DNA of 58,941 nucleotides, filler included, from Sphacelaria rigidula (GCA_964200075.2; 6 parts of 6 records of this genome joined end to end with filler, not necessarily neighbours in it), one strand, 5' to 3'; positions 7,650-58,941 are shown, counted from the first letter of the whole stretch. Translations and numbers: made by a program. Notes: generated by a model not told the origin, from the sequence alone.

Positions 7650-7864
7650 GTAGTCACAACACACACGATGAAACACCGCCCAATGAGGCACACATGCGGA
7701 GACGGGCAATTGGAGGAAAAAATGATAAACCAACTGCGGGCACCGGCGGGTAGGGGCGCACATACAAGAACAAGCGCTCCTCACAGAGCACGGCCCGGAG
7801 AGCATAGGCATCGAAGAGATAAAAAATCATCAACACGTACACAAAGGGCACACACGAAACATAC

Positions 7865-9668: not shown

Positions 9669-9742
9669 GGGGGGTGTACTCATGATCATGCATGCCATAG
9701 TCATGAGGCCATTGACCTCGCATCCCTACTAAGCCGGGACGA
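9669..9742 (-). mobile_element. 3' end of oligo(C)-tailed retroelement (cut by contig end)
   Basis: G6 followed by TGTACTCATGATCATGCATGCCATAGTCATGAGGCCATTGACCTCGCATCCCTAC; near-identical to 22111-22180. Confidence 0.8.
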
Positions 9743-9842: not shown

Positions 9843-9968
9843 AAAAGTTGCGTGGATACCCCTTGGGCCAGCGGTCGACGTTTTTCTCCCTTTTGCGCAA
9901 TCAGGCCGAAGAAATCGTGGATTTGGTGATTCGAACCCGTGATAACTCGTCCTGACCGTGAAATCTTC
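9843..9968 (+). repeat. Diverged copy of the dispersed repeat at 48081-48348 and 55067-55326
   Basis: It shares GCGGTC-ACGTTTTT...GAAAT-GT-GATTTGGTGATTCGAAC...GTGAT...TGAAA. Confidence 0.6.
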
Positions 9969-14261: not shown

Positions 14262-14330
14262 AGTTTTGGGCGTGCCTGACCCCTCAAACTGGGCAAGACA
14301 AAGTGTCACCGACCGAAAACACACACAGAC
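14262..14330 (+). repeat. Dispersed repeat core; other copies at ~19322-19390 (-) and ~58588-58660 (+)
   Basis: TGGGCG-GCCTGACCCC--AAA-TGGGCAA-A-A--GTGTCA-CGACC-AAA-CAC is present in all three. Confidence 0.7.
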
Positions 14331-15021
14331 AGGAAGAAGTATTGACTTTGTGACTTGTCCGTGCTAGCGGGAGTAAAATGCGCCTCACGCCATCGGAAGA
14401 GAGCAACACGAATCCAAACTTCACATCGAGAAAAAGCGGACTGCATTATAAACTCAGAACCCCAACGTGGCTGTCAGTACCATGCAATATATCAGGAGCG
14501 ATAACAGAAATCATGGACGGAGGAAGGAATAAATGGACCGGCAAAACAAGAGCAAACGCGAGGCAGCAGACACCTAGACGCTGTTAGCTTCGTCTTGCGT
14601 TGTAGAACACGTCTCGCCGTCCCAGCAGTCGCAGCTGCGCACACGTAGCACGCGAAATATTCTACACCGGGACCACAAGTGTGGCTTGTAATGATGCTCT
14701 TGTTCGTCTCGAGGAAAATATATTTGCCGTGCATCGGATCTAATCAAAGTATGGTAGCTAAGGTTGCGCATGTGCGATTCATTTCGGGCATTTGCGCTTT
14801 CATTTGCATCGGCTGCTCTTCTTTGCATTGCCAACTGCGACGGTAACATTATTCGTGCACCCGGGTGCACCGTCGGTAACCATGCTTACCCTGGGATAAT
14901 GGTAAAAGCACGCGCGGCTGATGAGTGCTACATGATCACCCTGACCGTGGTGACTTGAGAACACTTTCAATCGGAGCCAGCAAAATCGACGTGGAGTACA
15001 GTAGTACAATGAGAACATGAT

Positions 15022-22094: not shown

Positions 22095-22221
22095 CAGGGG
22101 GGGGAGGGGGGTGTATCCATGGTCATGCATGCCATAGTCATGTGACCATTGACCTCGCATCCCTACAAAGCCGGGACGGAGCACGCTGGGTTTTCGCCGG
22201 ACCAGGCTCGTTCTTCAGGGG
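22095..22221 (-). mobile_element. 5'-truncated oligo(C)-tailed retroelement end, probable CAGGGG target duplication
   Basis: The G-run at 22097-22111 is followed by ~100 bp matching 9675-9742 and, as reverse complement, 57349-57445. CAGGGG occurs at 22095-22100 and 22216-22221. Confidence 0.75.
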
Positions 22222-29523: not shown

Positions 29524-30442
29524 CAGCAGCGGGGCAAGAAGATAGAAGATGCGATTGTGGGATGCCTGGACGGTTCACCGTGATGATCGCCTGGCACAAA
29601 CGTGGGGCACTTGAGTCAAAGGTGTTGGACTTGGTTTCAGGCTACGAGCCCGTGTTGGAGGCATTGTATAGTGTCGGTGATCCAGCAAAAGAACTAAAAG
29701 GCACCAGACCCCCAACAAGTACTAGGATTGGGATGTCCCAGTACGTTGATTATACCTCACGAATACACTCGAAACGAACAAGCTGGAGGTTTCTCGAAGG
29801 AGATCGAGAGAGAGAGACGGTTGGGAAGGTCGGATGGAGAAGTAAAGAGTGGACGGGTGAAGTACTACAAGTGCTGGTATTCGGAGTGCGTAGCGATATG
29901 ACGACGATAGAGTTTAAAAGGAAATGCAACGGAGTTGGATTATATATGCTATTTGGCAACAGGAAAAGTAGAAAGGGAGTGAGAACGCTTCCGAGTCACG
30001 CTAAAACAGAGCGCGAGCAAGGAGGGGGAAGGATAGAGACAAGTAAGGTATTGTCATGGGCTAGATAGAAGGGTAGGATGGAGAGTATGCATAGATAATG
30101 GGACAGCAAACCTAAGACGTAGTTAATTGGTAAATGGAGGGAAAGAAAGGCAGGAACAGGGAAATGCCCGGAAGGTGAGGGAGAGGAGACACAACGCCCC
30201 GAAGCAAGTAGACAAAGCCCAAACCGGTAAGGGGCAGAACAATCAAGCGAGAGAAAGTAGCAGTAAAATCGACGGAGAGAGAACAGTAGACAAAAGGGGA
30301 GCAGATTATGGTCCGGAAGGGAAGTTGAGAATAGGATCGTGGAACGTGTGTGGATTCGCCACAAGCAAGCGTAAAAGAATAGAGATAGTCAAGCAAGTAA
30401 GAAACCGCGACCTAGATATCGCAGGAATCCAAGAGTCAAGGG

Positions 30443-30482
30443 AGAAAAGGGGGGGGTGTACTCATGATCAGAAAAGGGGGGG
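30443..30482 (-). mobile_element. 14-bp retro-insertion (extreme 3' tip of an oligo(C)-tailed element) with 13-bp target duplication inside the LINE endonuclease
   Basis: AGAAAAGGGGGGG (30443-30455), then GTGTACTCATGATC, then AGAAAAGGGGGGG (30470-30482). The insert is identical to 9674-9687. Confidence 0.85.
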
Positions 30483-32642
30483 CGGAAATAGGATGCAAAG
30501 TTGAAGAGTACGCGTGGATAGGGGAAAAGCGAAAGGGACAGAAACCCGAGAGCAGGGGAGCGGGGGAAGTAGAGTTTTTAGTCAAAGAATACCTGTCTGG
30601 CATTATAGAAGTGATCGAAGACACGGGATTCGACGAGAGCATGTCGATAAGGGTACCAGGAAAGCGGGGAACGAAGGACTTCTTCGTAGGAAACGTCTAT
30701 ATGCCCTCAGAATCGAAGAGTAGGATGGACGATATACAGTGGAGGTTTGGAGAGATAGAAGCAGATGCACATCAGTATAAAAGGCAAGGAGAAGTAATAT
30801 CAGTGGGAGATTTTAATGCAAGGGTAGGAAAATCAGGTCAACCGGATGGTACCGTTGGTCAGTACGGGGAATATAAGAACACGAATGGGGTAGAAATGCT
30901 GAAGCTCGTTGAGCATAACGAGATGAAGACGCTAAACGATAGAGTACCAAAGCCAGAGGCACAATGGACATGTACTGAAATATGCAAAGACGATGGAGAA
31001 CTCTCCGTTCTTGACCATATTTTGGTGGAACATAGAAATAGTGAAGAAATAGACATACATGTATGCCCGGAGGACGTGGGAACCACAGATCACTGCCTAA
31101 TATGGACAGAAAGCCAACAGACGAGAGCTAAAAGAAATAGGCGGGGGAGGAAGTTGTACAAATGGAGAATCGATAAACTAGATATGGAAGAAAAACGGCA
31201 AGAGTTCCAAGAAGAGATGACCAGAAATGCAGTGAAATTTTCCGAGCTGTTGGAACGCGTAGGTGCAGTCGATACCGAAATGGAAAGAAACCAGGCAGGA
31301 GCGAAGATTATAGAAGGATGGGAGAAGCTAGTCAAAAACATAGCGAGTAAAGTCATGGTGAAGAAACTGATCGTATGCAACAGAGCAGTAAAATGGTGGG
31401 ATGGGTAAGTGAAAGAGGCTATCAGAGTAAGGAGAGAGGCCCACGCGAGATGGATGTCGAGCAAAAGTACAGTAGGATGGGAGGAGTATACTAAAGCTTT
31501 GAAAGAGCGTAAGGAATATGGTAAAGGAGAAAAGTAAGGGAATATGGGAAGATGTAGTGAATAAATCGAAAAAGGATTTCCATGGCGGGAGGGAAGAGAT
31601 GTGGATAGGGATGAAAGGGATTATGGGAAATCAGGCAGGAAAGATAGACAACAGGATAGCTACACTACGGGCACAGAACGGTAAAATGGTCAGGAGTTCG
31701 AAGGGAAAGAGAAAAGTGCTATTCGAGCACTACCGTAAACTAGGAACATCAGAAACTAATGTGAACTTCGACACGGAATTCGAGAAATAGATCGACGAGT
31801 GAGCAGAAGCAAAGGTAGAGACGTCGAAACGGGAGGATAGTGGCTCGAAAGAATTGCAGAGAGAATTTACCAGAGATAAAGTAAAGGAGTGCGTAGCTAA
31901 ACTCAAGAACGAAAAGGCAGCAGGGGCAGACGAAATAGTGGAAGAATTTCCGAAGTACGGGGGGGAAGGAATGATTGCCATGATGGTTATGCCATACACA
32001 ACTGAATATGGGAAAACGAGTACACACCCAAGAGGTGGAGAGAGGGAGTAGTAGTCTATCTTTTCAAAAAAGAGACACGGCTGACTCAGGAAACTATAGA
32101 GGAATAACGCTACTGAGCACGGTAGGGAGAACGTTCTGTAAGATTCTGAACGATAGAGTAGGAACGATAGAGTAGGAACGATGCTAGAAAAGGAAGACAA
32201 AAATCAGCGAGGGAAAAGAAGGTTTCAGACCAAACCGTCGTTGCGTAGACCATGTGTACACATTAGGTAAGATTATTCAAGGTAGGAAAGATGCCGGGCT
32301 GACAAGGTACTGTCTGTTTCTTTCTGGACGTGTAAAAGGCTTATGACACAGTATGGAGAAGTAGGCTGTGGAAAAAGTCGCGGGAAACTGGTGTCAGAGG
32401 AAAGATGCGGAGAATGGTGAAGAAAATGACAGAATGTGCCAAAAGTGCCGTGATGCTAGACTGGGAAATACCGAGATACTTTGATCTTTTACAAGGAGTT
32501 GCATAAGGATGTACGTACGTTATCATCCACTTTGTTCAAGGTATTTAATCATGACCCAAGGAGTCAAGGTGGGTGAAGATACGGTATTAGGTTTGATGTT
32601 CGCGGATGATATTGTGGGCGTATCAGGAACAACAGAAGGATT

Positions 32643-39363: not shown

Positions 39364-42216
39364 TGTCTAGTGGAACTAATGAGCGGGGTTGATCTGGGGG
39401 TGTGGTTGGGATTTGGGGGTGAGCGGGAGGGAGAGATACGACGCGAAATCAGTAAGAGGGCAGTTTGAACCCAAAATGTCCGTTCACGCGTATGTTGTGC
39501 CAGACTTCTTCGTGACCGGGCCACGACCGAACACATAAGCCGTGACACACCAGGATCACCATGACCGTTAATCCCGTCGGATGCAGATACAGTCATGCGT
39601 GTAAGGAGACTACATGAGCCACTGCAAGGCCGTGGCGTAACTCGATGATGCATACAGGGAGAAACGCGAACCTGTCTTCCTCAACCGATGGCACAAGGCT
39701 GCTGCACACCATTAACCCTTTGACGGCGAGCAGAGGTCATCTGCTGAATCAGTATCAATTTCACTTGAAATATTGACTGCATGACCAAATGGCTTACCCT
39801 CGATGTCAAAGGGCTATTTGAAGGAGTCTAGTCTTGAGCAGTTTTGCCAACCGTCCGTGTCTACCAAGGCCACACTTCGCCAGGGGAATGTATGTGCCAC
39901 CCTTGCCCGAGGGTTCTCGGTATGCGTTGGGCAGGATGTTAGTGTTAGGGGTAGCAATGCTTGTAAAATGGTGTCAACCGTGGACATCTGTAGCCCAACG
40001 CCTGTAAACTAGCCTCGTATATGATATCCCGTGGTCTCACGTGTAAACAAACACGTTTCAACGAGAAAAAAAAAAGACGGTGACGCTTTGTTGGGGAGAA
40101 ATATATTGCATCGCAGTAACAAGACAGACGAGCACCACGTGACATCGCCTCAGATATAGTAAAATGTCTATATATACCTTGATAGCGTGCCCGCGTTGTA
40201 AGCACTGGATTGGCGTTACTCGGTCGCGGGGTTATCCTGCACTGCGGTTCAGTGTTATTCCTCTTCCATAATATGGAGGAGGTGTGTATGGGAGACTTTG
40301 TACCTCCTGGTAGCTACCGTCATATTCTGCAGTTTCAATTGTGCTAGATCAAGAGTATAGATCATCACGGGAAGAGGGGTGGGCACTTCTAACATCAAGA
40401 GCTCGCTTCACGGGCTGTGTGCGGAGGTGGAAAAGCGCCATCACGCACGAGACCCGTCACAGCACACATCGCAAGCGATTGCTACTGAAACGAGGCCGCG
40501 TCCCGGTAGTACACGGCAATGTTGTGCAAGGTTCTCTACATGTCGGCCCACCCCGCGCGCACGGATTTCAACTCACATTTGTATACAGTATATTTGCACG
40601 GTATTGCTTGCTGTCTGTGTGTGCCGAGAGGTGGTACGTGGTGTACCACCCCTCGCTCCGCCACATCTTGTATACAACGGTCGGTATTGCAGCTGAGCGT
40701 GCATTTGCCCTATGTGGCGCACGCATGAGTAAAAGGCCGCCTCGGCCGCTATGATGCCTGCCTATATCTTTAGCGGTGCTGTATGGTAACACAGCCGATA
40801 TGGCGCGCAAGCCGGCTGTAACATTTCATACCGTGGAGATTTCCAATCTTTCTTGAAGTTATAGTGCGCGCCGTTCGCACTTCGAGTATTTCCCATGTTG
40901 CAGTAGGTAATAGCTTGTGTACAGTACATTCGTTTTTAATTGTAATACTGACTGTCGAAAGCTGTTATCCAGGGTTATACACTTTCACATATATTAGGCG
41001 GTGATATCGTGAAATAATCCCCAGCACATGGCCGAAGTGGAAGTGAGGCAATCACCGAAACATCCAAGTGCAAAGCTTGTGCGGAAAAATCTAAGTTGAT
41101 AAGGCTAGAAGAATACCTGTGCAACGCCCACTCCGGCTACCAGCCTGTTTGCACGGCCGTCCCGGTAGTGGTGGGACTGTCTGTACCGAGATGTCGCCCC
41201 CAGTACCAGGTACGCTGGCAAGGGCCCGTCGCGCTACCCACTGGTCGCGCGACAGGAGCCTAACCTTCGACTGTCGACCATTTTGGAGCAGAAACGTTCA
41301 CCTCCCAACACTCATATATATAGCGGACCATAAACGATGCTTGTTTGCTGGGTTTCTTCGAGCGTTCATCCATAACTGGGCGAAGATTGATGATGAGGCC
41401 AGCAGGATCCGTTGCAGTCAGCGTGCTCAACTATCACTGTTCCCACCATAATCGTCATCAGACAGCAGGGTGGTGAAAAAAAAGTCCGACGCATCGTGGA
41501 TATCCACCGTATCACTGCAGACCGGGCCATCAGCGACTTCCCCTGCTGCAGCTGTGAATGTGACACCTTCCTCTGATACTAATCTACACACTCTCCCAGT
41601 TTCGGCGTCATCTGACGCGAGGTGCGGATTCTCTCCGCGGCTAAGCTGCCAAAACACCGCCTCCATATTATGGAAAAGGAGTAACACTGGGTCTGTGGTT
41701 TAAAAGTGTCGGTTCAAAAATCTCGCCGCACCTCTATCTTTTTTTTCCAACCAGCCGAAAAATGGAATCTATGTTTTTCCCGCTGGCATCCCTGAACCAT
41801 CGCGTCGCTTTAATGATACCGTTGACATTCAGTCTCCACACCTATTTGAGGCGCAGCGTGATGATCCTTTGGGGGAAAAAACAATGTTGGAACAGGTATT
41901 GTCTAGGGGTGTTATACAACGTATCAAAATTCGTCCACGAACGTATGTGCATGCGAATACTGCTATCACCTTCCAAGGTCGATGACAACAGGCGACTTCT
42001 TCGGGGAAGATCTGGATGACGCACCCACCATACGGCTTGAAGAAGACGTCGACAACAACATCGTGCTTATCCCAATTCCTCCCTCTTTTCTCCGTTACGT
42101 TCAGCTTGCTGGTTTCGTTCAAAAAACATACATATTACCTTTGTCATATTCTAACGTATCTCGCATACCCCTCAGTCATACTACTTTTCACCGGTCAGAA
42201 CGGCAGTAGGCACAAC

Positions 42217-48080: not shown

Positions 48081-48348
48081 GTCGGACGTAGAATGATTCA
48101 TCCGAAAATTACTTGCTTTTTATCAGTGTAATTGATTCGTACCGTACGAATCAATCCTTGGGCTTTGTCTTCAGCAGACCCCCCCCCCCCCCAAGCACGC
48201 GCAACCGAGACGCCTGGAATAGCGTAAAAATTGCGCAGAGACTTCTTCGACCCTGCGGTCAACGTTTTTACCTTTTCCCGAGCAAGCAGGTCTCAGAAAT
48301 AGTAGATTTGGTGATCCGAACCAGTGATGATTTGTTTGAGCCTTGAAA
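48081..48348 (+). repeat. Dispersed repeat/transposon fragment homologous to the insertion at 55067-55326
   Basis: Colinear matches: GTCGGACG...AATGATTCATC, CGAATCAATCCTTGGG, GGAATAGCG-AAAA-TTGCGCAGAGAC, AATAGTAGATTTGGTGAT. Confidence 0.85.
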
Positions 48349-48543: not shown

Positions 48544-48997
48544 GTGAGTCAAGTGATCAGAGATCTCGCGGTCATGATCATGCGCACCGTAGGTGCAGCA
48601 GCACGCTGGACGATGTGCTCACTACTCTCGAGGAGAGAGAGAGGGGGAGGTACTGATTTTTTTTTATGTACCTCAAATGCCGGGCGGGGGATCATATGTG
48701 CTCGCGCCTGGGATCCGAGAGGGTGGGGACGGGGGCGAGGTGTATGGGGGTCGAGCGGATAGGCAAGAGGTGGTAGCATAGCGATGGTGATGGAGTGCAA
48801 CGCACGCTCCGGGCAAAAAGGTTTACAACGTTGATCTTGTGGGAACCTGCGGACAGTCATCATCCCGCCAAGAATTTTTGGTCGTTGAGGATATATCATG
48901 TCGTCGTGGTCCTCCTTCGACCCATAGGATGCGTCGGTAGTCCTCGGGTCCGTCTTGCTTCTCAAGAACATATGGCTGAAAATTTCATCACCTGGGG

Positions 48998-49032
<35 letters not shown>

Positions 49033-49247: not shown

Positions 49248-51001
49248 AAGCCCCAAGCCCCATATGTGCTTTTTCTTCATTTCGTATTGGTGAGGACGGC
49301 AAATAGGTTAGAAGACTTCATCGAGGGGTCGGCTTTGACAGCCCAGTTCCCCTTGATGGCGTGTGTGCTTCAAATCCAAATGCAGAGAGCTGCCAGCTGC
49401 TTGTTAGGGAACGCATCGCTCTCTGCAGAATACATAGAGGCGTTTTCTTTTTTTGCCGGTTTTGAGGGTAGGCTTCGAAAGCAATTGAAAGAAAAGGTCG
49501 CTGACCCTCTGCTTAGTGGTGTGCGGCGGGTGTATGTAGCGCCCGAACAGTGAGGGTGTCTGGACGCACGACTTCTCGATCAAAAGGGTATAGTAAACAA
49601 TCAACCATATTCAGGTGAAGCATCCACGGGGGAAAGGGGGGCCAGGGGGGGCGAGGGGATGAGTTTCTCTGGTCGAAATTGTGTTAATAACAGCCAAGAT
49701 ATTTTTTGCAGCCCAAACTCAGTCTGACTCACGTTGCTAGATCAAGTGTACTACACGACATGAAGTGGCTTGGCCCCGGCACCGATTTCATAGGTACGGG
49801 TTGTTATGGCATGTTCAAACTGAAACAAGCGATTTTCTTGTGTTACATGGTTCTTGTCGGGATTTCCGCTGGATACACGTGCGCTACTCAAACCCTATCT
49901 ACCGCAGATAAGTCAACGAGATTGCACCGTTTAGTTATTTTTTGTCTGGGCCGGGTCTGGACTTCATTTCCCTCCGATAGCTTGCTACAGCCCAAAACAG
50001 TAGCAGGAGAGCTGAAAAAACGATGTGTACGGTAGTCAGCATCGAAAATATTCTGATAAGCACCAAGTTATGAAGCAAACAAAGAGTACTGTATACCGTC
50101 GGAAGGAAGCGGCGCTCTAGCACACGGGATAGCACACGCAAAAGAGATGCATCTTTGCGTTAGCTGTCTGATGTCCCGTGTGTAGAGTGCTAAGTTATCT
50201 CCAGCGTTGTACCTCAATAACTTTCTGTCGCGACATCGACTGTATCTGTACCACAAGAAGATTCGTCAACGCTGGCCAGCCAGTTGACACCATGCTTCTT
50301 GTGTGCGTACGGCACCGATCAACGCGAGCCATCCGAAACAACAGCACGGCAGCCTACAAAAGGGAGCCAGCGGCATTGATGCGGGTACAGCCCTTTTCTC
50401 GGATTATGTTTTGTCCGAGCAGCATGAAACAAAAACAACAACGATGGGGCTATCCTAAACCATGCCACGTATCCAAGGCCGTGCAGAATGCAGCAGCAAG
50501 ATAAGCGCAAATGGAGACTGTAACGCCAACCCCGGCCACCGCAACCATACCGCGGGCACGGCGGCACTCGAAGCAACCGTTGGGTACACTATCCCGCATA
50601 CCAATAGACAGAGCACCGCTTGTGAGACTGCCGTCGTCTTGGATATCACCCTGCCCCCCCACGGTACTCTACCGCAGCTGCGGGCACCCCAAGACCGGCA
50701 AAACCATGTGTGACGGAGTTAACACTAAAATCAAGTTTGTATTGTGAGGTGTACTATGAAACGTAAAGACTGGTCAGAAGGTTATATTAAATTACTTGAA
50801 TAAATAGTGTTTGTACCATGAAAAAAAGACGTACCTATGACCCCACCGCCTTCACCCCGGCGTTAATCCCTGAATATAGTACCACGTGGTGACTTCGTCG
50901 CACACCCTTGCAACCCCACAGGACCAGCGAACAACATCGACATCATACGATATGGTCAGCACGTCGACACACGACAATGACGTAGCTCCATCGGCTTTCA
51001 C

Positions 51002-51127
51002 CTGAGCTTGCAATAACCCCGCACGATTGTCGAGCGTGGCGGCCAAGCTTGGGTGCTTAGGGTCGGAAATCTACTCATATATCGTCTGACACCACTTGTA
51101 AAGTGCCTCAGCCTCGGCGTACTTGCC
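51002..51127 (-). pseudogene. TPR cassette 16: GKYAEAEALYKWCQTIYE*ISDPKHPSLAATLDNRAGLLQAQ (in-frame TAG; terminal or dead exon)
   Basis: TAG at 51071-51073, weak GAG acceptor, donor GTGAAA intact. Confidence 0.8.
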
Positions 51128-51403
51128 CTCCAATGTAGTACACGGCGCAGGGGCAGCCCACAATAATGACCAGCTCTACATCGGCGGCGAGATGCTGCCA
51201 CAGGTGTGCAGCCGCGAGCGATATGTCTACAATGCCAACGGTGCTATACCCGATCTTCACCGATCAGAGGTACCACGGGTTGGCTTCACCGTAATCACCC
51301 TCTCAGTCAACATCGGCCCCCAGGGCCAGCGAACAACCTTGACACCACATGATGCTGTTCATACGTTGACACACGACTATGGCAAAGTTCCATGGGTTCT
51401 TAC

Positions 51404-51529
51404 CTGAGCTTGCAACAATCCCGCCCGCTTATCGAGTGTGGCGGCCACGCTTGGGTGTTCCGGACCGAGAAACTTCTCCTGTATCGCGTGGCACCGCTCG
51501 TAAAGTGGCTCAGCTTCGGAGTACTTGCC
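51404..51529 (-). CDS. TPR cassette 15: GKYSEAEPLYERCHAIQEKFLGPEHPSVAATLDKRAGLLQAQ
   Basis: CAG acceptor, GTAAGA donor, open 126 bp. Confidence 0.85.
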
Positions 51530-51823
51530 CTGAAATTCAGTATACGACGAAGAACCATCCTGTAACAGTCAACGTCGGACCTACGACGGCGGCGGGACGC
51601 TCGCGTCACCGCCCCACCCCCGTGTGCAGCCGATGAGCGATTAGTCTTTAGGGCCACGGTTCCTATGCCCGATCTCCACGGCTTAGAGGTACAATGGGTT
51701 GACATCGCCGCACGCACCCTCTCAGTAAACGTTGGCCGACAGGGCCAGCGAACGACATTCAACACCACACTATGCCATTTACACGTCGACGCACGACTAC
51801 GAAAATATTCGACCGCTCCTCAC

Positions 51824-51949
51824 CTGAGCTTGCAGCAACCCCGCACGGTTGTGGAGCGTGGTCGCCAAGCTTGGGTGCTCCGGGCCGAGAACTCTCTCCT
51901 CGATCGCCTGGCACCGTTCGTAGAGGGGCTCGGCCTCGGCGTACTTGCC
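51824..51949 (-). CDS. TPR cassette 14: GKYAEAEPLYERCQAIEERVLGPEHPSLATTLHNRAGLLQAQ
   Basis: CAG / GTGAGG, open 126 bp. Confidence 0.88.
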
Positions 51950-52250
51950 CTGAAATGTAGTACACGACGCACAAGCACCCTATAACAGTCAACGGTGGAC
52001 TGAAAACGGCGGCGAGACGCTCGGGTAACCGCTCCGTCTTGGTGTGCAGCCGGTGAGTGATGTGTGTACAGAGCCAAGAGCCAAGTTTACCACGCCCGAT
52101 CTCCACAGCTCAGAGGCGCCACGAGTAAGCTTCGTCGCATTCACCCTCTCAGTCCACGTCGGCGCCCCGGACCAGCGATCGATGGCAATAACCTCACGAT
52201 GTCGTTCACACGTCAACACACGACTACGGCAAAGCTCCATCGGCTCTCAC

Positions 52251-52376
52251 CTGAGCTTGCAATAATCCCGCACGGTTGTGGAGCGTCACGGCCAAGCGTG
52301 GGTGTTCCAGGCCAAAAACCTTTTCCTCGACCACCTGGCACCGCTCGTATAGTGGCTCTGCCTCGGCGTACTTGCC
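52251..52376 (-). CDS. TPR cassette 13: GKYAEAEPLYERCQVVEEKVFGLEHPRLAVTLHNRAGLLQAQ
   Basis: CAG / GTGAGA, open 126 bp. Confidence 0.88.
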
Positions 52377-52663
52377 CTGGAACACGGTAAACCACGAAAT
52401 ATCATCCTATGTTGGTAGTTGTTGGACCTACAACATTGGCGAGATGCTCGCGTCACTGCCCCGCCCAGGTGTGCATCCTGCGAGCGCTGTGCGCAGAGGG
52501 CTAAGGCTACTTCGCCCGACCTTCATGGCTCGAAGGTACCACGGATTGCCGCTCTCACACTTTCAGTCAGCGTTGGCCCACAGTACCAGCGGACAACATC
52601 CTTAACACACATTGTCGTACATACGTCAACACACGACTACGAGAAACCTAAATCTGCTCTCAC

Positions 52664-52789
52664 CTGCGCTTGCAACAACCCCGCACGGCAACGTAGGGTT
52701 GTAGCCAAATCAGGACTTTCCGGACCGAGAAGCTTTTCCCGCATCACCTGACACCGCTCGAACAGTAGCTCCGCATCGGCGTACTTTCC
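52664..52789 (-). CDS. TPR cassette 12: GKYADAELLFERCQVMREKLLGPESPDLATTLRCRAGLLQAQ
   Basis: AAG acceptor (weaker), GTGAGA donor, open 126 bp. Confidence 0.8.
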
Positions 52790-53082
52790 CTTCAATTTAG
52801 TACACGGCGCAATAGCATCCCATTACACTCAACGGTGGACCGACAACAGCGGCGAGACGCTCGGGCCACCGCCCCGCCCTGCTCTGCAGCCGACGAGCAA
52901 TATGTGTACAAGGCCAATGGTACTATGCCGAACATCAACGGCTCGGAAGTACCACGGGTTAGCCTCGCTGCACTTACCCGCGCAGTAAACGTTGGCCCAC
53001 AGAATAAGCGGGCAATATCGACACCACACGATATCGTTCACACGTCGACAGACGACTACGACAAAGTCCCATCGGCTCTCAC

Positions 53083-53208
53083 CTGAAGTTGCAACAACCC
53101 TGCGCGGTTGTGGAGCGTGGTGGCCAAGCTTGGGTGCTCCGGGCCGAGAATTTTCTCCTTGATCGCTTGGCACCGCTCGTAGAGTGGCTCCGCCTCCGCA
53201 TACTTACC
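53083..53208 (-). CDS. TPR cassette 11: GKYAEAEPLYERCQAIKEKILGPEHPSLATTLHNRAGLLQLQ
   Basis: CAG / GTGAGA, open 126 bp. Confidence 0.88.
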
Positions 53209-53496
53209 CTGCAATGTCGTGCATGACATACAAGCATCCTACAAATTTCAACAGCAAATCTACAGCGGTGGCGAGATGCTCAGGCCATTGCCTCGCCCGC
53301 GTGTTCAGCCGACGATCGATGTCTACAGGGCCTAGGGTACTATGCCCGATCCTCACGAAATGGAGAACAAGTTGGCGTCGCCACACTCGCCCTCTCAGTC
53401 AACAACGGCTTACAGGACCAGCGGTCAACATACAACACCATACAATGCCGTTCACATGTTGACACACGACTACGAGGAAGCTTCACCCGCTGTCAC

Positions 53497-53622
53497 CTGA
53501 GCTTGCAACATCCCCGCACGGTTGTGGAGCGTGGCGGCCAAGCTTGGGTGATTCGGGCCGAGAACCTTCTGTTGCATCGCCTGGCACCGCACGTAGAGTG
53601 GCTCCGCCTCGGCGAACTTGCC
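53497..53622 (-). CDS. TPR cassette 10: GKFAEAEPLYVRCQAMQQKVLGPNHPSLAATLHNRAGMLQAQ
   Basis: CAG / GTGACA, open 126 bp. Confidence 0.85.
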
Positions 53623-53911
53623 CTGCAATGTACACGACGCACAAGTATCCTGTAGCAGTCAACGGCGAATCAACAACGACGGCGAAACGCAAGGGGATCC
53701 AACTCCGCAGGCATGCACCTGCGAGCGGTATGTCTACAATGTCAAGGGTACTATGCCCGATCTCCACAGCTCAAAGGCGCCACGGGATGCCTTGGCCGCA
53801 CTCACTCTCACAGCCAACTTAGGCTCACCAGACCAGCGAACAACATGCAACACCACACGACGCTGTTCATACGTCGACACACGACTACGACGAAGATCCA
53901 TCAACTCTCAC

Positions 53912-54037
53912 CTGAGCTTGCAACAACCCTGCACGGTTGCAAAGTGTGGCGGCCAAGCTCGGGTGTTCTGGGTTGAGAACCTTCTCCTGCATCGCCTGGC
54001 ATCGTTCGTAAAGTGGCTCAGCCTCGGCGTACTTGCC
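53912..54037 (-). CDS. TPR cassette 9: GKYAEAEPLYERCQAMQEKVLNPEHPSLAATLCNRAGLLQAQ
   Basis: CAG / GTGAGA, open 126 bp. Confidence 0.88.
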
Positions 54038-54330
54038 CTGCAATGTAGTACACGACGAAGAAACAGCCTACACTAGTCAACGTCGGGCCTACAACGGCAG
54101 CGAGACACTCCGGCCACCACCCCGCCCAGGTGCGCAGCCGGCGAGCGATATGTTTACGGGGTCAAGGGTACTATACCCGATCTCCACAGATCACAGGTAC
54201 ATTGAGTGGGCCCCGCCGCATTCACCCTCTCAGTCACTGTTGGCCCACACGACCAGCGAGCAGCATCAACACCAAACAACGCTCTTTACACGTCAACACA
54301 CGATCACGACAAAGTTCCATCGCCTCTCAC

Positions 54331-54456
54331 CTCAGCTTCTAACAACCCCGCACGGCTACGAAGCGTTGCAGCTAAATCCGGATGTGCCAGGCCATGAACC
54401 TTCTCTTGCATCGCCTGGCACCGCTTGTACAATAGTCCAGCCTCGGCGTACTTGCC
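54331..54456 (-). CDS. TPR cassette 8: GKYAEAGLLYKRCQAMQEKVHGLAHPDLAATLRSRAGLLEAE
   Basis: CAG / GTGAGA, open 126 bp. Confidence 0.85.
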
Positions 54457-54735
54457 CTGAAACGTAGTACACGACGCACAAGCATCGGGTGACAGTACAC
54501 ATCGGGCCTACAACGGCGGCAAGACACTCGGTCACAGCCACGTTCAGGTGTCCTGGCGAGCGATATGTCTAGAGAACTGAGAGTACTATGCCCAATATTC
54601 CCCACCCAGCGGCACAACGGGTTAACTTCATCACACCCCCCCACTCAGTCAACATTGGCCCACTGGATCAGCGAACAACATCGGCACATCGTCCACACAC
54701 CGACACCACTACGTGCAGATTCCATTGACTCTTAC

Positions 54736-54861
54736 CTCCTCTTGCAACAGCCCCGCACGGCTGTGGAGCGTGGTGGCCAAGCTCGGGTGCTCCAGGCCGA
54801 GAACCTTCTCCTGTATCGCTTGGCACCGCTTGTAAAGTAGCTGCGCCTCCGCATACTTGCC
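54736..54861 (-). CDS. TPR cassette 7: GKYAEAQLLYKRCQAIQEKVLGLEHPSLATTLHSRAGLLQEE
   Basis: CAG / GTAAGA, open 126 bp. Confidence 0.88.
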
Positions 54862-55066
54862 CTGAAAGAAAGTACGCGGCGCAGGATCATCCCCTGTCAA
54901 TCAGTGTAGCACCAACAGTGACGGCCAGACGCTCGGGCACCGCCCCGCCCAAGCGTGCATCTGGTGAGCGTTATGTCTACAATGCCAAGGGTACTATGCC
55001 CGACCTCCATTACTCAAAATTACCACGGGTTGGCTTCGCCGCATTCGCCCTCTCAGCCAACCTTGC

Positions 55067-55326
55067 AAGTGTCGGACGAACAATGATTCATCTGACAATT
55101 GCTTGCTTTAGTTTTTTTTTTTTCGTACCGTGCGAATCAATCCTTGGGATTTGGTTTAAGCATTGCACCCCAAGCATGCGCACTCCAGGCACGTGGAATA
55201 GCGCAAAATTTGCGCAGAGACGTTTGTGACCTGTGGTCAACGTTTTTAGCTTTTCCCAGTAAACAGACCTCGAAAATAGTAGATTTGGTGATTCGAACAA
55301 GAGATGATTCGTTTGACCCTTGAAAT
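55067..55326 (+). mobile_element. 260-bp insertion in TPR intron, flanked by CTTGC direct repeat
   Basis: CTTGC at 55062-55066 and 55327-55331. Removing 265 bp restores a standard 291-bp intron. The insert is homologous to 48081-48348. Confidence 0.8.
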
Positions 55327-55417
55327 CTTGCCCACAAGGCCAGCGAACAATATCAACACCAAACAATGTCGTTCACACATCGACACACTACTACGAGATT
55401 GATACATCGGCTCTCAC

Positions 55418-55543
55418 CTGAGCTTGCAACAACCCCGCACGGTTGTGGAGAGTGGTGGCCAAGCTTGGGTTCTCCGGGCCGAGAACCTTCTCGTCAATGA
55501 TCTGGCATCGTTTGTAGAGTGCTTCCGCCTCGGTGTACTCGCC
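55418..55543 (-). CDS. TPR cassette 6: GEYTEAEALYKRCQIIDEKVLGPENPSLATTLHNRAGLLQAQ
   Basis: CAG / GTGAGA, open 126 bp. Confidence 0.88.
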
Positions 55544-55833
55544 CTGCAATTTAGTACATGACGCAGGCGAGCCCACATCAGCCAACGGCGAACCTACAAC
55601 GATGGCGATACGCTCTTGTTGACGCTCTGCCCAGGTGTCCCGCCGGCGAGTTTAACGCCTACATGGCGAAAGGCACTATACCCGATCGTCGCGGCTTGAA
55701 GGTACAACGAGTTGGCATCGCCGCACCCATCCTGAGTCAACATTGGCTCACAGGACCAGCGAGTAATATCCACACCACACAATGTCGTTCAAACGTCTCA
55801 ACACAACTACAGCAGACTTGCATCCACTCTCAC

Positions 55834-55959
55834 CCGAGCTTGAAACAACTCCGCACGGTTATGGAGCGTGGTGGCCAAGTTTGGATGCTCCGGACCGAGA
55901 ACTTTCTCCAGCATCGCTTGGCACCGCTCGAAGAGTGCCTCCGCCTCGGCGTACTTGCC
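55834..55959 (-). CDS. TPR cassette 5: GKYAEAEALFERCQAMLEKVLGPEHPNLATTLHNRAELFQAR
   Basis: TAG / GTGAGA, open 126 bp. Confidence 0.85.
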
Positions 55960-56250
55960 CTACAAAGTTGGGCATGACACAGAAACAGCCTATAAGAGTC
56001 AACGGTGGGCCTACAATGGTGGCGGGACACTGAGGCCACCGCCACCGCCCAGGTCTGCTGCCGGCTAGTAATGTGTCTACAGCGTCGAGGGAACTATGCC
56101 CGATCTCCACGGCTCAGAGGTACCATGGGGTGGCTTAGCCGCACCAACCCTCTCAGTCAACGTTGGACCAAATAATCAGCAAGCACCAACACCAAACAAC
56201 GTCATTATGATACGAACATACGACCACGACAAGGTTCCATTGGCCTTCAC

Positions 56251-56376
56251 CTGAGTTTTCAACAACCGCGCACGGTTGTCGAGCGTGGCGGCCAAGGTTG
56301 GGTGCTCCTCGCCAAGAATCTTCTCCTCAATCGCCTGGCACCGCTTGTAGAGTACCTCCGCCTCGGCGTATTTTCC
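56251..56376 (-). CDS. TPR cassette 4: GKYAEAEVLYKRCQAIEEKILGEEHPTLAATLDNRARLLKTQ
   Basis: CAG / GTGAAG, open 126 bp. Confidence 0.88.
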
Positions 56377-56606
56377 CTGCGATGTGAAAGATGGTGCACA
56401 AGTATCCAAACATCAACTACGGACCTTTAACCTCGGCGAGACGCACGGGCCATCACACCACCCAGCTGCGCAGCCGGCGAGAAACGTGTGTACATGGCCA
56501 ACGGTGCAGCGGGATGGCTTCGCCGCACCAACTCCATCAGTCAACGTTGGCCAATAGGACCAGCGTACAAAATCGACACTTACCACATGTCGACACACGC
56601 TCTCAC

Positions 56607-56732
56607 CTGAGCTTGCAAGAATCCCGCATGGTTATGGAGCGTGGTGGCTAAGCTCGGGTGTTCAGGACCAAGAACCTTCTTTTGCATCGCCTGGCACCGC
56701 TCGTAAAGCGGCTCAGCCTCGGCGTACCTTCC
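56607..56732 (-). CDS. TPR cassette 3: GRYAEAEPLYERCQAMQKKVLGPEHPSLATTLHNHAGFLQAQ
   Basis: CAG / GTGAGA, open 126 bp. The following intron is shortened to 230 bp by deletions. Confidence 0.88.
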
Positions 56733-56931
56733 CTGCAATATGGCACATAACGCACAAGAATCATGCAACAAGTCAACCGTGGATTTCCAAAGGCGTCGAG
56801 ACGCTCGGGTAACCGCCCCGCCCAGGTGTGCGTCCAGCGAGCGATATACCTACGGGGCCAAGGATACTATGCCCCACCTCCACGGCTCAGGGGTACGACG
56901 AGTTGGCCCTGCTCTACTCACCCCTTCAGTC

Positions 56932-57462
56932 AACGGACCCTCAATGGGGTTGGCGTCTCTTAGCAATGACGCTAAAAAACACGCCACTCACTGAGTACGT
57001 TGGGCACCCCAAATTACCGGGGTTTCTTGCGCGCTGCCTTTTTTTTTCGGTATGCATGATAGTGGTCGGGCTTGATCATATTGTGCGGGGTGGTAGAACC
57101 TAAAGTCCGCGCTGAGGGAAGGATCATACTACGTAGTGTTCAAATGGAGAGACACCCATGAGGTAGTGTGGAACACGTGGCTGTCTCTGGAAGTGGCAAT
57201 ACCAGAAAATGAGGCAACTCATGAGAGGAGTTCATCCTAATGCAGACAATCAGTACGCTTCGGGTCGAACAATCTTAGCAAGATGTGGCTCACCCTCCAT
57301 GCGACTCGCCGAACACATCACGGCGCTTCGCGCTTGGCGATTAACTGCGAGCCTGGTCCGGCTAAAACCCGGTGAGCTCCGTCCCGGCTTTGTAGGGATG
57401 CGAGGTCAATGGTGATATGGCTGCGGCATGCGAGATGAGTACCCACCCCCCCCCCAACCGTT
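56932..57462 (+). mobile_element. Nested insertion in TPR intron: small AACGG...CCGTT element carrying a 5'-truncated oligo(C)-tailed LINE fragment (~57013-57451)
   Basis: Outer duplication AGTC (56928-56931 / 57463-57466); removing 535 bp restores a 294-bp intron. Inner duplication CCCCAA (57007-57012 / 57452-57457). 57349-57445 matches the reverse complement of 22111-22210. Confidence 0.7.
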
Positions 57463-57561
57463 AGTCACTGTCGGTCCACAGGACCAGGGAATCACATCGA
57501 CACCACACGATGTTGTTCATACGCTGACTCACAACCACGAGGAAGTTCCATCGGTTCTAAC

Positions 57562-57687
57562 CTGAGCTTCGAACAATCCCGCACGGCTACGTAGTGTCGC
57601 GGCCAAATGAGGATGCTCCGGGCCGAGAACCTTCTCTTGCATCGCCTGGCACCGCTCGAAGAGTGCCTCTGCCTCCGCGAACTTGCC
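57562..57687 (-). CDS. TPR cassette 2: GKFAEAEALFERCQAMQEKVLGPEHPHLAATLRSRAGLFEAQ
   Basis: CAG / GTTAGA, open 126 bp. Confidence 0.85.
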
Positions 57688-57965
57688 CTGCAATGTAGTA
57701 AAAAACGAAGAAGCAGCCCATGACAATCAACAGCGAACCTACAACGGTGGTGTGACGCTCACGCGACCGCCTTGCCCAGGTCTGCAGCCGGCGAGCGATG
57801 CATTTACAGGCCCAACTTCTACTGCTTGAAGGTGAAAGCGGGGTGGCCTCACCGCGCCAACTCTCTCAGTCAACGTTGGCCCACAGGACTGGCGGACAAA
57901 TCCACACCACACGATGTCGTTCACACGTTGACACACGACCACGACAAAATCCTAACGACTCTCAC

Positions 57966-58091
57966 TTGAGCTTTCAACAACCCCGCACGATTGCGCAGCG
58001 TGAAGGCCAAGCTTAGGTGCTCCGGGCCAAGGGCCTTCTCCTTGATCGCCTGGCAACGCTCGTAGAGTGGCTCAGTCTCAGCGTACTTGCC
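57966..58091 (-). CDS. TPR cassette 1: GKYAETEPLYERCQAIKEKALGPEHLSLAFTLRNRAGLLKAQ
   Basis: Pyrimidine-rich non-repeat acceptor (...ATTTCCCAG), CAA|GTGAGA donor, open 126 bp. Confidence 0.88.
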
Positions 58092-58941
58092 CTGGGAAAT
58101 AATTGACAAAGGGAGACATGCGTGTTCCAGGCGAAGCCGGATGTGGGTTGTGATGAAAATAGCATTAGCGCTTTTCTGTCGACCCTCCCGGCGGAACAGC
58201 AATGCTTCGGGTCATGGGACTCTTCTTCAATGTTATCGATTCTTCATACACTTATGTTGGCGTCATTGGAGATTCCACTGATGATATGCATCGAAAACCC
58301 AGAAAGCGTCGTGACGGTCCCCCTCATGCTTGTCGTAGAAGAGCTCCGACCATCCTCTAACTTGGCAGTTTGGTATAGATGGGTACTACAGATAGAAAAG
58401 CAAGAATCGTTGAAGAACGTTCAAGGTTTATCTGCTCTCTACCGGCTTCCGGGGGTCCCCCCGTGAAGACCCCCAGAAGCAGGTACATGTTCGTTAAGAA
58501 AAAAATCCAACTTTCATTCGTCCCGAGGTAGTCCAAGCAATGTCCGCACAAAGGTTCGTTGCGTACCTCGAAAACTTGATCTCACACAGTTATGGGCGGG
58601 CCTGACCCCCCAAACTGGGCAAAAAACGTGTCACCGACCCCAAACCACGAAAAGACACGAACAGATCGACTTTTGGGGCTTATTCAGGCTCGTCGGGTGA
58701 AAAATGCCTAACGTCATGGGAAGAGAACGACATGGATCCAAAATTCATATAGAGAACCCTACCGTTACTTTCGTTGTTTCACATATGCTGCATGCCACTG
58801 CGTAGCTTTTCGTCCATGCTTGCGAACGCTGGAATGCCAGGAAGCTAGTTGGGTTGATCCAACCCAACGCACACCGAGAACCCTCGGGCATGGGCGGTAC
58901 ATACATTCTTTGAACAAAGTGAGGCCTTGGTAGACCCCAAA

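What the first reader, a model, noticed from the sequence alone, without database searches (positions are those of the whole stretch)
50880..58091. Array of 16 interchangeable TPR exon cassettes with homologous introns: a candidate receptor-diversification system
Seen: 16 exons of exactly 126 bp, all phase 0/0, so any subset can be joined in frame. Each is followed by a copy of the same ~290-bp intron, and 15 of 16 exons are open with intact GT/AG sites. Each exon encodes helix B, linker and helix A of the next repeat rather than one canonical TPR. Established: one-repeat-per-exon NB-ARC-TPR and ROCO-LRR genes with exon shuffling were reported in Ectocarpus as candidate pathogen receptors, so the architecture is not new; to my knowledge the mechanism is unresolved. 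Inference: the array can generate receptor variants by combinatorial exon skipping and/or recombination between homologous introns.
Basis: partly seen in the sequence, partly recalled or inferred. Interest (0 to 1): 0.8.

Follow-up and report, generated by a model that had tools for sequence, protein, structure and literature searches.

The report
Brown-alga TPR exon array, spliced consecutively

Summary
On the MINUS strand, 58091..51002 holds 16 units of exactly 126 bp, all phase 0. Fifteen are open and the last has a stop. Each is followed by a copy of one ~290-bp intron family. Single exons match Pfam TPR_12/TPR_10. The exon motif and length are those published for Ectocarpus NB-ARC-TPR genes (PMC3341825). 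The closest proteins are brown-algal NB-ARC-TPR proteins.

New here: contigs of two runs guessed to be RNA carry exact GT..AG joints for 7 of the 15 introns. All 7 join neighbouring exons, and none is in either DNA run. Exons are under purifying selection (median dN/dS 0.23). Units are about equally diverged: introns 68% identical, longest shared exact tract 30 bp, star-like trees. A second DNA source is colinear wherever its contigs bridge.

The array is therefore an old, stable, expressed repeat domain built by tandem duplication. An NB-ARC domain could not be checked because the window ends 850 bp upstream. Rare skipped isoforms cannot be excluded. The diversification idea is already in print (Zambounis 2012; Teng 2023 by title). 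Verdict: a new member of a known kind, of modest interest.

The parts
57966..58091 (-). E1, 126-bp TPR exon (GKYAETEPLY...LLKAQ), first unit of the array
   Evidence: Pfam TPR_12 E 1.9e-06; RNA-like contig depth about 22 in its bin
57562..57687 (-). E2, TPR exon; subtype with TLRSRAGL
   Evidence: joined to E3 in RNA-like contigs (joint 56731>57561)
56607..56732 (-). E3, TPR exon
   Evidence: joints to E2 and E4
56251..56376 (-). E4, TPR exon
   Evidence: joints to E3 and E5
55834..55959 (-). E5, TPR exon (acceptor TAG)
   Evidence: joints to E4 and E6
55418..55543 (-). E6, TPR exon
   Evidence: joints to E5 and E7
54736..54861 (-). E7, TPR exon
   Evidence: joint to E6 across the 556-bp intron
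54331..54456 (-). E8, TPR exon, the most diverged open unit (subtype TLRSRAGL)
53912..54037 (-). E9, TPR exon
   Evidence: RNA-like contig piece 53911-54039 (record 19)
53497..53622 (-). E10, TPR exon
   Evidence: Pfam TPR_12 E 7.1e-08; joint to E11
53083..53208 (-). E11, TPR exon
   Evidence: joints to E10 and E12
52664..52789 (-). E12, TPR exon (acceptor AAG; subtype TLRCRAGL)
   Evidence: acceptor used in RNA-like contigs (joint 52788>53082)
52251..52376 (-). E13, TPR exon
   Evidence: RNA-like contig piece 52250-52379 with short unlaid ends (record 24)
51824..51949 (-). E14, TPR exon, closest to the consensus
   Evidence: Pfam TPR_12 E 7.3e-10, 39.4 bits, above the 30.1 cut-off
51404..51529 (-). 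E15, last open TPR exon
   Evidence: bin depths fit cover of the exon alone in both RNA-like runs
51002..51127 (-). E16, inactivated unit: in-frame stop (..YE*IS..) and GAG acceptor context
51128..57965 (-). 15 copies of one intron family between the exons. Twelve are 276-301 bp; I3 is 230, I6 is 556 and I2 is 829 bp. All are GT..AG.
   Evidence: mean pairwise identity 0.685, range 0.54-0.75; alignment A2
56935..57465 (.). dispersed-repeat insertion inside intron 2 (includes a very high-copy stretch, 57176-57474)
   Evidence: depths; other partial copies at 22100-22210 and 9669-9741; no Rfam family
55060..55335 (.). dispersed-repeat insertion inside intron 6
   Evidence: 78% identical copy at 48081-48348 and a partial copy at 9873-9967
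50915..51001 (-). truncated 16th intron copy (first ~87 nt only); the array ends here
   Evidence: blastn against the other introns

Best explanation
This is the repeat-encoding part of an expressed brown-algal gene of the NB-ARC-TPR (NLR-like) kind. It lies on the minus strand.

Fifteen intact 126-bp phase-0 exons (E1-E15) each encode helix B of one 42-residue TPR, the linker, and helix A of the next. Spliced in genomic order they give a 630-residue TPR solenoid, the presumed ligand- or partner-binding sensor domain. E16 is a dead copy at a truncated end of the array.

The array arose by tandem duplication of a 419-bp exon-plus-intron unit (unequal crossing-over), which is why the introns are homologous. 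Since then the copies have diverged independently. Amino-acid sequence and splice sites have been kept, while introns and synonymous sites have drifted.

Shown: the anatomy, the family of the repeats, the splicing of 7 introns in neighbour order, purifying selection, and the absence of recent exchange between units.

Inferred: the upstream NB-ARC domain, the binding function, and the duplication mechanism.
For: Anatomy: 16 units, 15 open, GT..AG throughout.

Family: TPR_12/TPR_10 matches for single exons. The exon length and the motif GKYxEA..LLxxQ equal those of the 124 Ectocarpus TPR exons (PMC3341825, passages read). Of the 27 brown-algal or eukprot hits that I fetched out of 120 listed, 16 carry PF00931. 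The 4 relatives whose repeats are all of the window's 'RCQ' type all have a P-loop. NB-ARC was re-confirmed in P0002 (E 1.9e-26) and P0007 (E 1.1e-15).

Expression: in runs X6 and X7 (one study, guessed RNA), contigs 100% identical to the window carry joints 56731>57561, 56375>56606, 55958>56250, 55542>55833, 54860>55417, 53207>53496 and 52788>53082. All are CT..AC on the + strand and all lie at the predicted exon borders. They link E2-E3-E4-E5-E6-E7 and E10-E11-E12, at depth 21-43. Neither DNA run (X1, X4) has any contig with these joints.

Selection: identity by codon position is 0.83/0.86/0.65. Mean dN is 0.165, mean dS 1.04, median dN/dS 0.23, and 2 of 105 pairs exceed 1.

Old and static: intron identity is 0.54-0.75 with no close pair. 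Trees are star-like with long tips, and distance does not correlate with separation in the array (r -0.13 and -0.08). The longest exact tract shared by two units is 30 bp, median 16. Contigs of X4, from another study, are colinear over 50916-53541, 54028-54478, 54764-55214, 55433-56992 and 57393-58456, with 1-5 differences each.

Fold: four repeats of P0002 give pLDDT 96.2, with helices at 3-21 and 26-41 of each unit.
Against: No NB-ARC or other N-terminal homology exists anywhere in the window. The first 560 residues of 17 relatives gave only noise outside the array (E >= 0.018). Only 850 bp lie upstream of E1, and from about 58372 that stretch is a high-copy repeat.

The C-terminal cap repeat typical of many family members (..LLERALSIR..HPDT..) is absent: 0 of 76 hits fell outside the array. 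The array ends in a dead exon and a cut intron. The 3' end of the transcript is unknown, so the gene could be truncated.

Junction evidence covers 7 of 15 introns; 24 joints were not displayed. 'RNA' is the tool's guess for X6 and X7, and both come from one study.

Introns (identity 0.685) are somewhat more alike than 4-fold synonymous sites (0.589; bootstrap 0.52-0.67). Pure neutral decay of introns does not predict this.

Some brown-algal proteins with very similar repeats lack NB-ARC (P0021 and P0045, whose N-terminal ~330 residues match no Pfam family).
Confidence: 0.75

Rival explanations
1. One reading: regulated combinatorial exon skipping produces many receptor variants from this one array, in a Dscam-like logic.
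For: All exons are 126 bp and phase 0, and each carries helix B plus the next helix A. Any subset would therefore give an in-frame, regular solenoid (inference). Splice variants that combine repeat exons differently are reported for Ectocarpus ROCO genes and, by citation, for NB-TPR genes (PMC11378527 section 15, read; Teng 2023 not seen).
Against: All 7 canonical joints displayed join neighbours. The only long-range joint (54866>57610) is non-canonical (AG..TG) and has just 22 letters on one side. A loose end seen in the RNA-like runs at 57655 in the same exon (E2) is also seen in a DNA run, so that joint probably comes from a paralogue or the contig graph. The 13 aligned introns show no conserved RNA structure or selector-like pairing: consensus energy -6.9 kcal/mol over 304 columns. 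Contigs cannot exclude rare isoforms.
Confidence: 0.15
2. One reading: ongoing (somatic or frequent germline) recombination between the homologous introns changes cassette number and order.
For: The array must have grown by such events in the past, since exon and intron are duplicated as a unit. Somatic recombination was proposed for this family (PMC3341825).
Against: Units are 54-75% (introns) and 64-87% (exons) identical, with at most 30 bp of shared exact identity. From established knowledge of homologous recombination, that is far from what efficient exchange needs. The trees are star-like and show no young pair. DNA contigs of two sources are colinear, and no displayed DNA joint lies at a cassette border; those shown lie in the inserted repeats with sides of 20-25 letters. 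PMC11378527 states that no somatically recombined loci or dedicated recombinases have been reported.
Confidence: 0.05
3. The array is a detached or truncated remnant: a TPR-only transcript or a decaying pseudogene without a signalling domain. It is still transcribed but no longer acts as a receptor.
For: A high-copy repeat begins about 280 bp upstream of E1. No N-terminal domain or cap exon is in the window. The distal end is a dead exon plus a cut intron. The neighbourhood is rich in transposon fragments. Zambounis et al. class many family members as pseudogenes.
Against: Fifteen consecutive open exons with intact splice sites have persisted, although neutral sites are about 30-40% diverged and every intron is full of stops. 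Splicing is precise. Median dN/dS is 0.23. Relatives P0002 and P0005 also lack the cap.
Confidence: 0.15
4. Same architecture, but the gene belongs to a different brown-algal TPR class: TIR-NB-ARC-TPR as in P0003 and P0057, or the class with an unassigned ~330-residue N-terminus as in P0021 and P0045.
For: Such proteins are among the hits, with 64-83% identity to single exons.
Against: The repeats most like the window's are in P0002, P0005, P0007 and P0008. Every repeat in those proteins has the RCQ motif, and all four have a P-loop.
Confidence: 0.15

Closest known systems
Ectocarpus NB-ARC-TPR genes with repetitive TPR exons (Zambounis et al. 2012, PMC3341825)
   Same: 126-nt, 42-aa exons. 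Same exon register and motif (GKYxEA[E/D]PL[Y/F]...LLxxQ). Phase 0. Inactivated exons on the coding strand, and none on the other strand. Closest protein hits belong to this family.
   Different: Not the same locus or species: best per-exon identity to any database protein is 67-90%. NB-ARC is not seen here. In the passages I read, the paper does not describe homologous introns or their divergence. This array shows no sign of recent shuffling.
Brown-algal NB-ARC-TPR alternative splicing (Teng et al. 2023, Plant J 114:246; not held, known from its title and from PMC11378527)
   Different: Here the assembled RNA-like contigs show only neighbour-to-neighbour joins for the 7 junctions displayed. 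I could not read that paper or its supplements, so its evidence may bear on this claim.
Brown-algal ROCO LRR exon arrays (Teng et al. 2024, PMC11378527)
   Same: One repeat per exon, in-phase introns, tandem exon duplication, candidate immune receptors.
   Different: LRR exons of 72 nt in phase 2, with copies on the non-coding strand. Here the exons are TPR exons of 126 nt in phase 0, on the coding strand only.
Kinesin-light-chain / nephrocystin-3 type 42-residue TPRs (Pfam TPR_12, TPR_10, TPR_NPHP3)
   Same: Sequence family and helix-loop-helix geometry.
   Different: Those Pfam families say nothing about exon structure. The TPR_NPHP3 match is far below its cut-off (20 bits against 100).
Dscam exon clusters / lamprey VLR cassettes
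   Same: Arrays of similar in-frame cassettes linked to recognition diversity (analogy drawn in the cited papers).
   Different: No mutually exclusive choice, no selector or docking structure, and no DNA rearrangement seen.

Membership tests
Pfam TPR_12 / TPR_10 (42-residue TPR) | Profile match at or above the curated cut-off | tested here: met
   E14: TPR_12 39.4 bits (cut-off 30.1) and TPR_10 30.6 (27.5). E10: 33.0 and 32.2. E1 is just below (28.4 and 20.9). Three of 16 exons were scanned.
Pfam TPR_12 / TPR_10 (42-residue TPR) | Antiparallel helix pair per repeat | tested here: inconclusive
   One window exon folded alone gave a single helix 6-41 (pLDDT 79.5), which is uninformative. Four repeats of relative P0002 gave helices at 3-21 and 26-41 of each unit, pLDDT 96.2. 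That is evidence by proxy only.
Brown-algal NB-ARC-TPR with one repeat per exon | TPR domain built of 126-nt, 42-aa in-phase exons with the motif GKYxEA..LLxxQ | tested here: met
   16 units; definition from PMC3341825.
Brown-algal NB-ARC-TPR with one repeat per exon | NB-ARC (PF00931) domain N-terminal to the repeats | not testable with these tools
   The window ends 850 bp upstream of E1. There is no hit in the window, no genome is held, and an exact 40-mer was not found in the metagenome contigs.
Brown-algal NB-ARC-TPR with one repeat per exon | Closest repeat sequences lie in NB-ARC-bearing proteins | tested here: met
   P0002, P0005, P0007 and P0008; 16 of 27 fetched relatives carry PF00931.
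Brown-algal NB-ARC-TPR with one repeat per exon | Inactivated TPR exons on the coding strand only | tested here: met
   E16 has a stop. There is no plus-strand TPR hit and no decayed exon inside the introns: best 3.6 bits, against up to 5.5 in shuffles.
Cassette alternative-splicing systems (Dscam-like) | Transcripts that use alternative subsets of the cassettes | tested here: inconclusive
   7 of 7 canonical joints shown are neighbour joins. 24 joints were not shown, and contigs drop rare variants.
Cassette alternative-splicing systems (Dscam-like) | Conserved intron RNA pairing elements that govern cassette choice | tested here: not met
   RNAalifold on 13 introns: -6.92 kcal/mol; 5 of 30 pairs have any compensatory change.
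Somatic cassette recombination (VLR / VDJ-like) | Rearranged DNA forms beside the germline form | tested here: not met
   No displayed DNA joint lies at a cassette border in X1 or X4, and the contigs are colinear. The data are contigs only, so rare forms would be missed.
Somatic cassette recombination (VLR / VDJ-like) | Long identical tracts or recombination signals between cassettes | tested here: not met
   Longest shared exact tract 30 bp, median 16.

The most novel reading that the evidence does not exclude
The intron copies are not drifting freely. They are more alike (68.5%) than 4-fold synonymous sites of the exons they flank (58.9%), and they keep their length (276-301 bp in 12 of 15). 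If that reflects constraint, the homologous introns could be functional parts of the array. For example, they might set the rate or order of splicing so that particular cassettes, such as the diverged E8, can be left out under some conditions. That would make the locus a regulated, low-frequency cassette-choice system rather than a fixed repeat domain.
Probability: 0.1. Interest if true: 0.6.

Novelty: new member of a known kind. Interest (0 to 1): 0.3.

Why it matters
Brown algae are an independent multicellular lineage, and their immune receptors are unproven. The NB-ARC-TPR and ROCO families are the main candidates, and the 'adaptive immunity by exon shuffling' idea has stood untested since 2012.

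This locus offers a clean, expressed 15-exon example. Its numbers argue that, at least here, the architecture is an old product of duplication kept by purifying selection, not an active shuffling machine. That is useful calibration for the published hypothesis, but it does not open a new question. The concrete junctions listed under next steps would make the splicing question directly testable with existing or cheap data.

Tried and rejected
(1) Whole-genome context: no genome is held. No earlier scan notes exist.

(2) Upstream ORFs 58244-58941 on the minus strand: no Pfam family.

(3) Extending the contig with an exact 40-mer in the metagenome contigs: 0 matches.

(4) Folding a single exon with the 15-exon alignment: one continuous helix, an artefact of isolation.

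(5) Conserved intron RNA structure: none.

(6) A decayed TPR exon hidden in the intron family, prompted by two weak tblastn hits: best 3.6 bits, within shuffled controls; nhmmer E 0.28.

(7) Homology of the window's introns to an apparently read-through intron in the Sphacelaria protein P0007: E 0.8, not significant.

(8) Exon-versus-flanking-intron co-ancestry by Mantel tests: r 0.07 (p 0.36) and r 0.15 (p 0.24). No signal either way.

(9) Plus-strand ORFs across the array (4 tested, 139-166 aa): no family. They are mirror ORFs of a GC-rich coding strand.

(10) Rfam on 50000-58941: nothing.

(11) Sequencing runs: no listed holder is on record as RNA, and X6-X9 are guesses. Parts without RNA-contig cover (E8 and E16 bins in both RNA-like runs; the E14 bin in X7) are holes that prove nothing.

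(12) The joint 54866>57610 was considered as a possible E2-to-E7 skip. I rejected it because it is non-canonical and has a 22-letter side, and because the loose end seen at 57655 in the RNA-like runs (in the same exon, E2) is also present in DNA run X4.

(13) Teng et al. 2023 could not be read. Supplements of all papers were closed, so supplementary table 1 of PMC3341825 (lists of inactivated exons) was not seen.

Full report
**What is there.** Tandem Repeats Finder reports a 419-bp period over 51201-55065 (9.3 copies, 70% matches). Reading the reverse strand, a script found 16 units of exactly 126 bp. Each is flanked by AG and GT and translates to a GKYAEAEPLYERCQAI.EKVLGPEHPSLATTLHNRAGLLQAQ-like peptide. 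Minus-strand exon starts are 58091, 57687, 56732, 56376, 55959, 55543, 54861, 54456, 54037, 53622, 53208, 52789, 52376, 51949, 51529 and 51127.

Fifteen units are open. E16 has an in-frame stop and a GAG acceptor context. Twelve of the 15 introns are 276-301 bp. I3 is 230 bp, and I6 (556 bp) and I2 (829 bp) carry insertions that have other copies in the window, so they are dispersed repeats.

After E16 only about 87 nt of the intron family remain. Upstream of E1 there is none. An exon peptide finds exactly these 16 places (E <= 1e-14), all on the minus strand, and nothing else in 58.9 kb (8 other hits, E >= 1.6). In the exon frame every intron runs into a stop, after 8 codons in 12 of 15.

**What family.** Single exons match Pfam TPR_12 and TPR_10, starting at profile position 16-17 (E14: 39.4 and 30.6 bits, above the cut-offs). 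A profile of the 15 open exons (A1) was searched against longer proteins. At the top it found brown-algal proteins from Ectocarpus species, Scytosiphon, Sphacelaria, Pylaiella and Choristocarpus.

Of the 27 such hits that I fetched out of the 120 listed, 16 carry PF00931 (NB-ARC) in the precomputed lists. The four relatives whose repeats are uniformly of the window's 'RCQ' type (P0002, P0005, P0007, P0008) all have a P-loop. I re-confirmed NB-ARC in P0002 (E 1.9e-26) and P0007 (E 1.1e-15). Per-exon identity to any database protein is 67-90%, so this locus itself is not among them.

Zambounis et al. 2012 (PMC3341825; passages read) describe 13 of 24 Ectocarpus NB-ARC genes with TPR domains made of 42-aa, 126-nt exons. 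They used the search motif GKYxEA[E/D]PL[Y/F]...LLxxQ. They found inactivated exons on the coding strand and none on the other strand. All of this fits here.

A natural run of four repeats from P0002 folds with pLDDT 96.2, with helices at 3-21 and 26-41 of each 42-residue unit. The exon border therefore lies in the short A-B turn, and the longer GPEHP loop lies inside the exon. A single window exon folded alone gave one long helix and is uninformative.

**What could not be shown.** The window ends 850 bp upstream of E1. That stretch has no Pfam match and no similarity to the N-terminal 560 residues of 17 relatives. From about 58372 it is a high-copy repeat. No genome is held, and an exact 40-mer was absent from the metagenome contigs. 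The NB-ARC assignment therefore rests only on the likeness of the repeats.

The cap repeat that ends many family members is not in the window: 0 of 76 hits fell outside the array. P0002 and P0005 also lack it.

**Expression and splicing.** Eleven runs were listed for this stretch, and none is on record as RNA. I laid two likely DNA runs from different studies (X1, X4) and two runs guessed to be RNA from a third study (X6, X7), all kept as contigs.

X6 and X7 carry contigs that are 100% identical to the window, with seven joints:
- 56731>57561 (829 skipped)
- 56375>56606 (230)
- 55958>56250 (291)
- 55542>55833 (290)
- 54860>55417 (556)
- 53207>53496 (288)
- 52788>53082 (293)

Each joint is CT..AC on the plus strand, which is GT..AG on the minus strand. 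Each lies at the predicted exon borders, at depth 21-43. X1 and X4 have no contig with any of them.

The joints link E2-E3-E4-E5-E6-E7 and E10-E11-E12, always neighbour to neighbour. They include the weak AAG acceptor of E12 and the two introns with insertions. Pieces or bin depths also cover E1, E9, E13 and E15.

One further joint (54866>57610) is non-canonical and has 22 letters on one side. A loose end seen in the RNA-like runs at 57655, in the same exon (E2), is also present in DNA run X4. I take that joint for a paralogue or a graph artefact.

Limits:
- 24 joints were not displayed.
- Contigs drop rare variants.
- Both RNA-like runs come from one study.
- Holes in cover (E8, E16) prove nothing.

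**History of the array.** Exons are 64-87% identical in nucleotides (mean 78%). Identity by codon position is 0.83/0.86/0.65. Nei-Gojobori estimates give mean dN 0.165, mean dS 1.04 and median dN/dS 0.23, with 2 of 105 pairs above 1.

Introns are 54-75% identical (mean 68.5%) with no close pair. Conservation is even along their length, and the alignment shows no block beyond the splice sites that stands out. Trees of exons and of introns are star-like with long tips. Distance does not fall with proximity in the array (r -0.13 and -0.08). Exon and flanking-intron distances are uncorrelated (Mantel r 0.07 and 0.15, not significant). The longest exact tract shared by any two units is 30 bp, median 16.

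Contigs of X4, from another study, differ by 1-5 bases each and are colinear over every stretch they bridge. The DNA joints displayed all lie in the inserted repeats, with sides of 20-25 letters.

The picture is a burst of tandem duplications long ago, followed by independent divergence under purifying selection. There are no recent conversions, duplications or rearrangements.

**Mechanism and rivals.** The best-supported reading (0.75) has two parts. The array is the sensor-domain part of an expressed NLR-like gene, and its major mRNA contains the exons in genomic order, giving a 15-repeat (630-residue) TPR solenoid. Intron homology is a by-product of unit duplication.

Twelve of 42 positions are variable (entropy above 1). 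Six lie in the helix 26-41 (helix A), five in the helix 3-21 and one in the linker (helix positions). From recall, helix A lines the concave, ligand-binding face of TPR solenoids. This would fit repeat-to-repeat diversification of a binding surface, but I did not test it.

Regulated combinatorial skipping (0.15) stays possible in principle, because any subset of exons is in frame and structurally regular. It has no support in the displayed joints, and no conserved intron RNA structure backs it (-6.9 kcal/mol over 304 columns). Ongoing intron-intron recombination (0.05) is disfavoured by the divergence figures and by colinearity. A truncated remnant (0.15) and another N-terminal class (0.15) cannot be excluded without upstream sequence.

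**Comparison with what is known, and novelty.** The architecture is that of PMC3341825. Somatic recombination was proposed there. Combinatorial alternative splicing of TPR exons is the title claim of Teng et al. 2023 (Plant J 114:246). That paper is not held. I know it from the reference list and discussion of PMC11378527 and from PMC13449251. PMC11378527 also states that no somatically recombined loci or dedicated recombinases have been reported.

My searches found no paper that measures intron homology or the age of units in such arrays. Supplements were closed and Teng 2023 is unread, so I do not claim this is absent from print.

The finding is a new member of a known kind. Its added value is direct junction evidence plus a quantitative argument that this array is old and stable.

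**One unexplained point.** The introns (68.5% identity) are somewhat more alike than 4-fold synonymous sites in the exons. The 4-fold figure is 58.9% (960 of 1631 comparisons over 21 codon columns; bootstrap 52-67%). A no-indel simulation shows that MAFFT does not inflate identity. The sample is small and the pairs are not independent. It may reflect weak constraint on the introns or a higher mutation rate at GC-rich third positions. It is the basis of the novel case above.

Noticed in passing
window 57176-57474 (inside intron 2), also 56877-57175: Extremely high-copy stretch: summed contig depth is about 1e6 in the DNA runs and about 1e5 in the RNA-like runs, against about 25 for the exons. 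It matches no Rfam family. Partial copies lie at 22100-22210 and 9669-9741. Probably a short dispersed element.
   Followed up: partly
window 58372-58941 and 50000-50597: Both flanks of the array are high-copy repeats (depth about 1e3 to 4e4). Pieces of the upstream flank recur at 14259-14432, 19324-19393 and 39859-39937.
   Followed up: partly
exons E2 (57562-57687), E8 (54331-54456), E12 (52664-52789): These three exons share a subtype (..TLR[S/C]RAGL..) and form a clade in the exon tree (support 0.92). Their flanking introns do not group together. This could be old subtypes, exon-limited exchange or convergence.
   Followed up: partly
introns of the array, 51128-57965: Intron copies are more alike (0.685) than 4-fold synonymous sites of the exons (0.589; bootstrap 0.52-0.67). 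This is unexplained.
   Followed up: partly
window 52093-52391 and 54485-55082: Summed contig depth in the RNA-like runs is 240-1480 here, far above the 21-43 of the spliced contigs. DNA depth is also raised. Sequences at least 95% alike from other, more abundant loci (paralogues or repeats) must map here.
   Followed up: no
window 30416-31408 (+), 27703-28374 (+): An endonuclease-reverse-transcriptase ORF (PF14529, E 9.5e-05) lies in a region of strong GC and AT skew (30-34 kb). A zinc-knuckle ORF (PF00098, E 6e-04) lies nearby. These are retroelement remains next to the array.
   Followed up: partly
window 7781-8932 (-): ORF with a SAPS domain (SIT4 phosphatase-associated protein, PF04499, E 1.6e-08). 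An ordinary host gene is likely here.
   Followed up: no
window about 29.45 kb, 33.9-34.0 kb, 49.15-49.2 kb; 48994-49030: Runs of N (assembly gaps) appear as X in translations, and there is a 37-base G homopolymer.
   Followed up: no
proteins P0021, P0045 (also P0010, P0018, P0047, P0048 by eye): This is a second class of brown-algal proteins with very similar 42-residue TPRs. In place of NB-ARC they share a ~330-residue N-terminal region, which matches no Pfam family at E <= 1e-4 in the two proteins scanned.
   Followed up: partly
protein P0007, residues about 881-899: A gene model from Sphacelaria appears to read through an intron. The resulting peptide (VKGGVTLSW..) resembles the translated start of the window's introns (VKANGTLSW.. 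and VRADGTLS*). The match is not significant (E 0.8), so shared intron ancestry across species is only a lead.
   Followed up: partly
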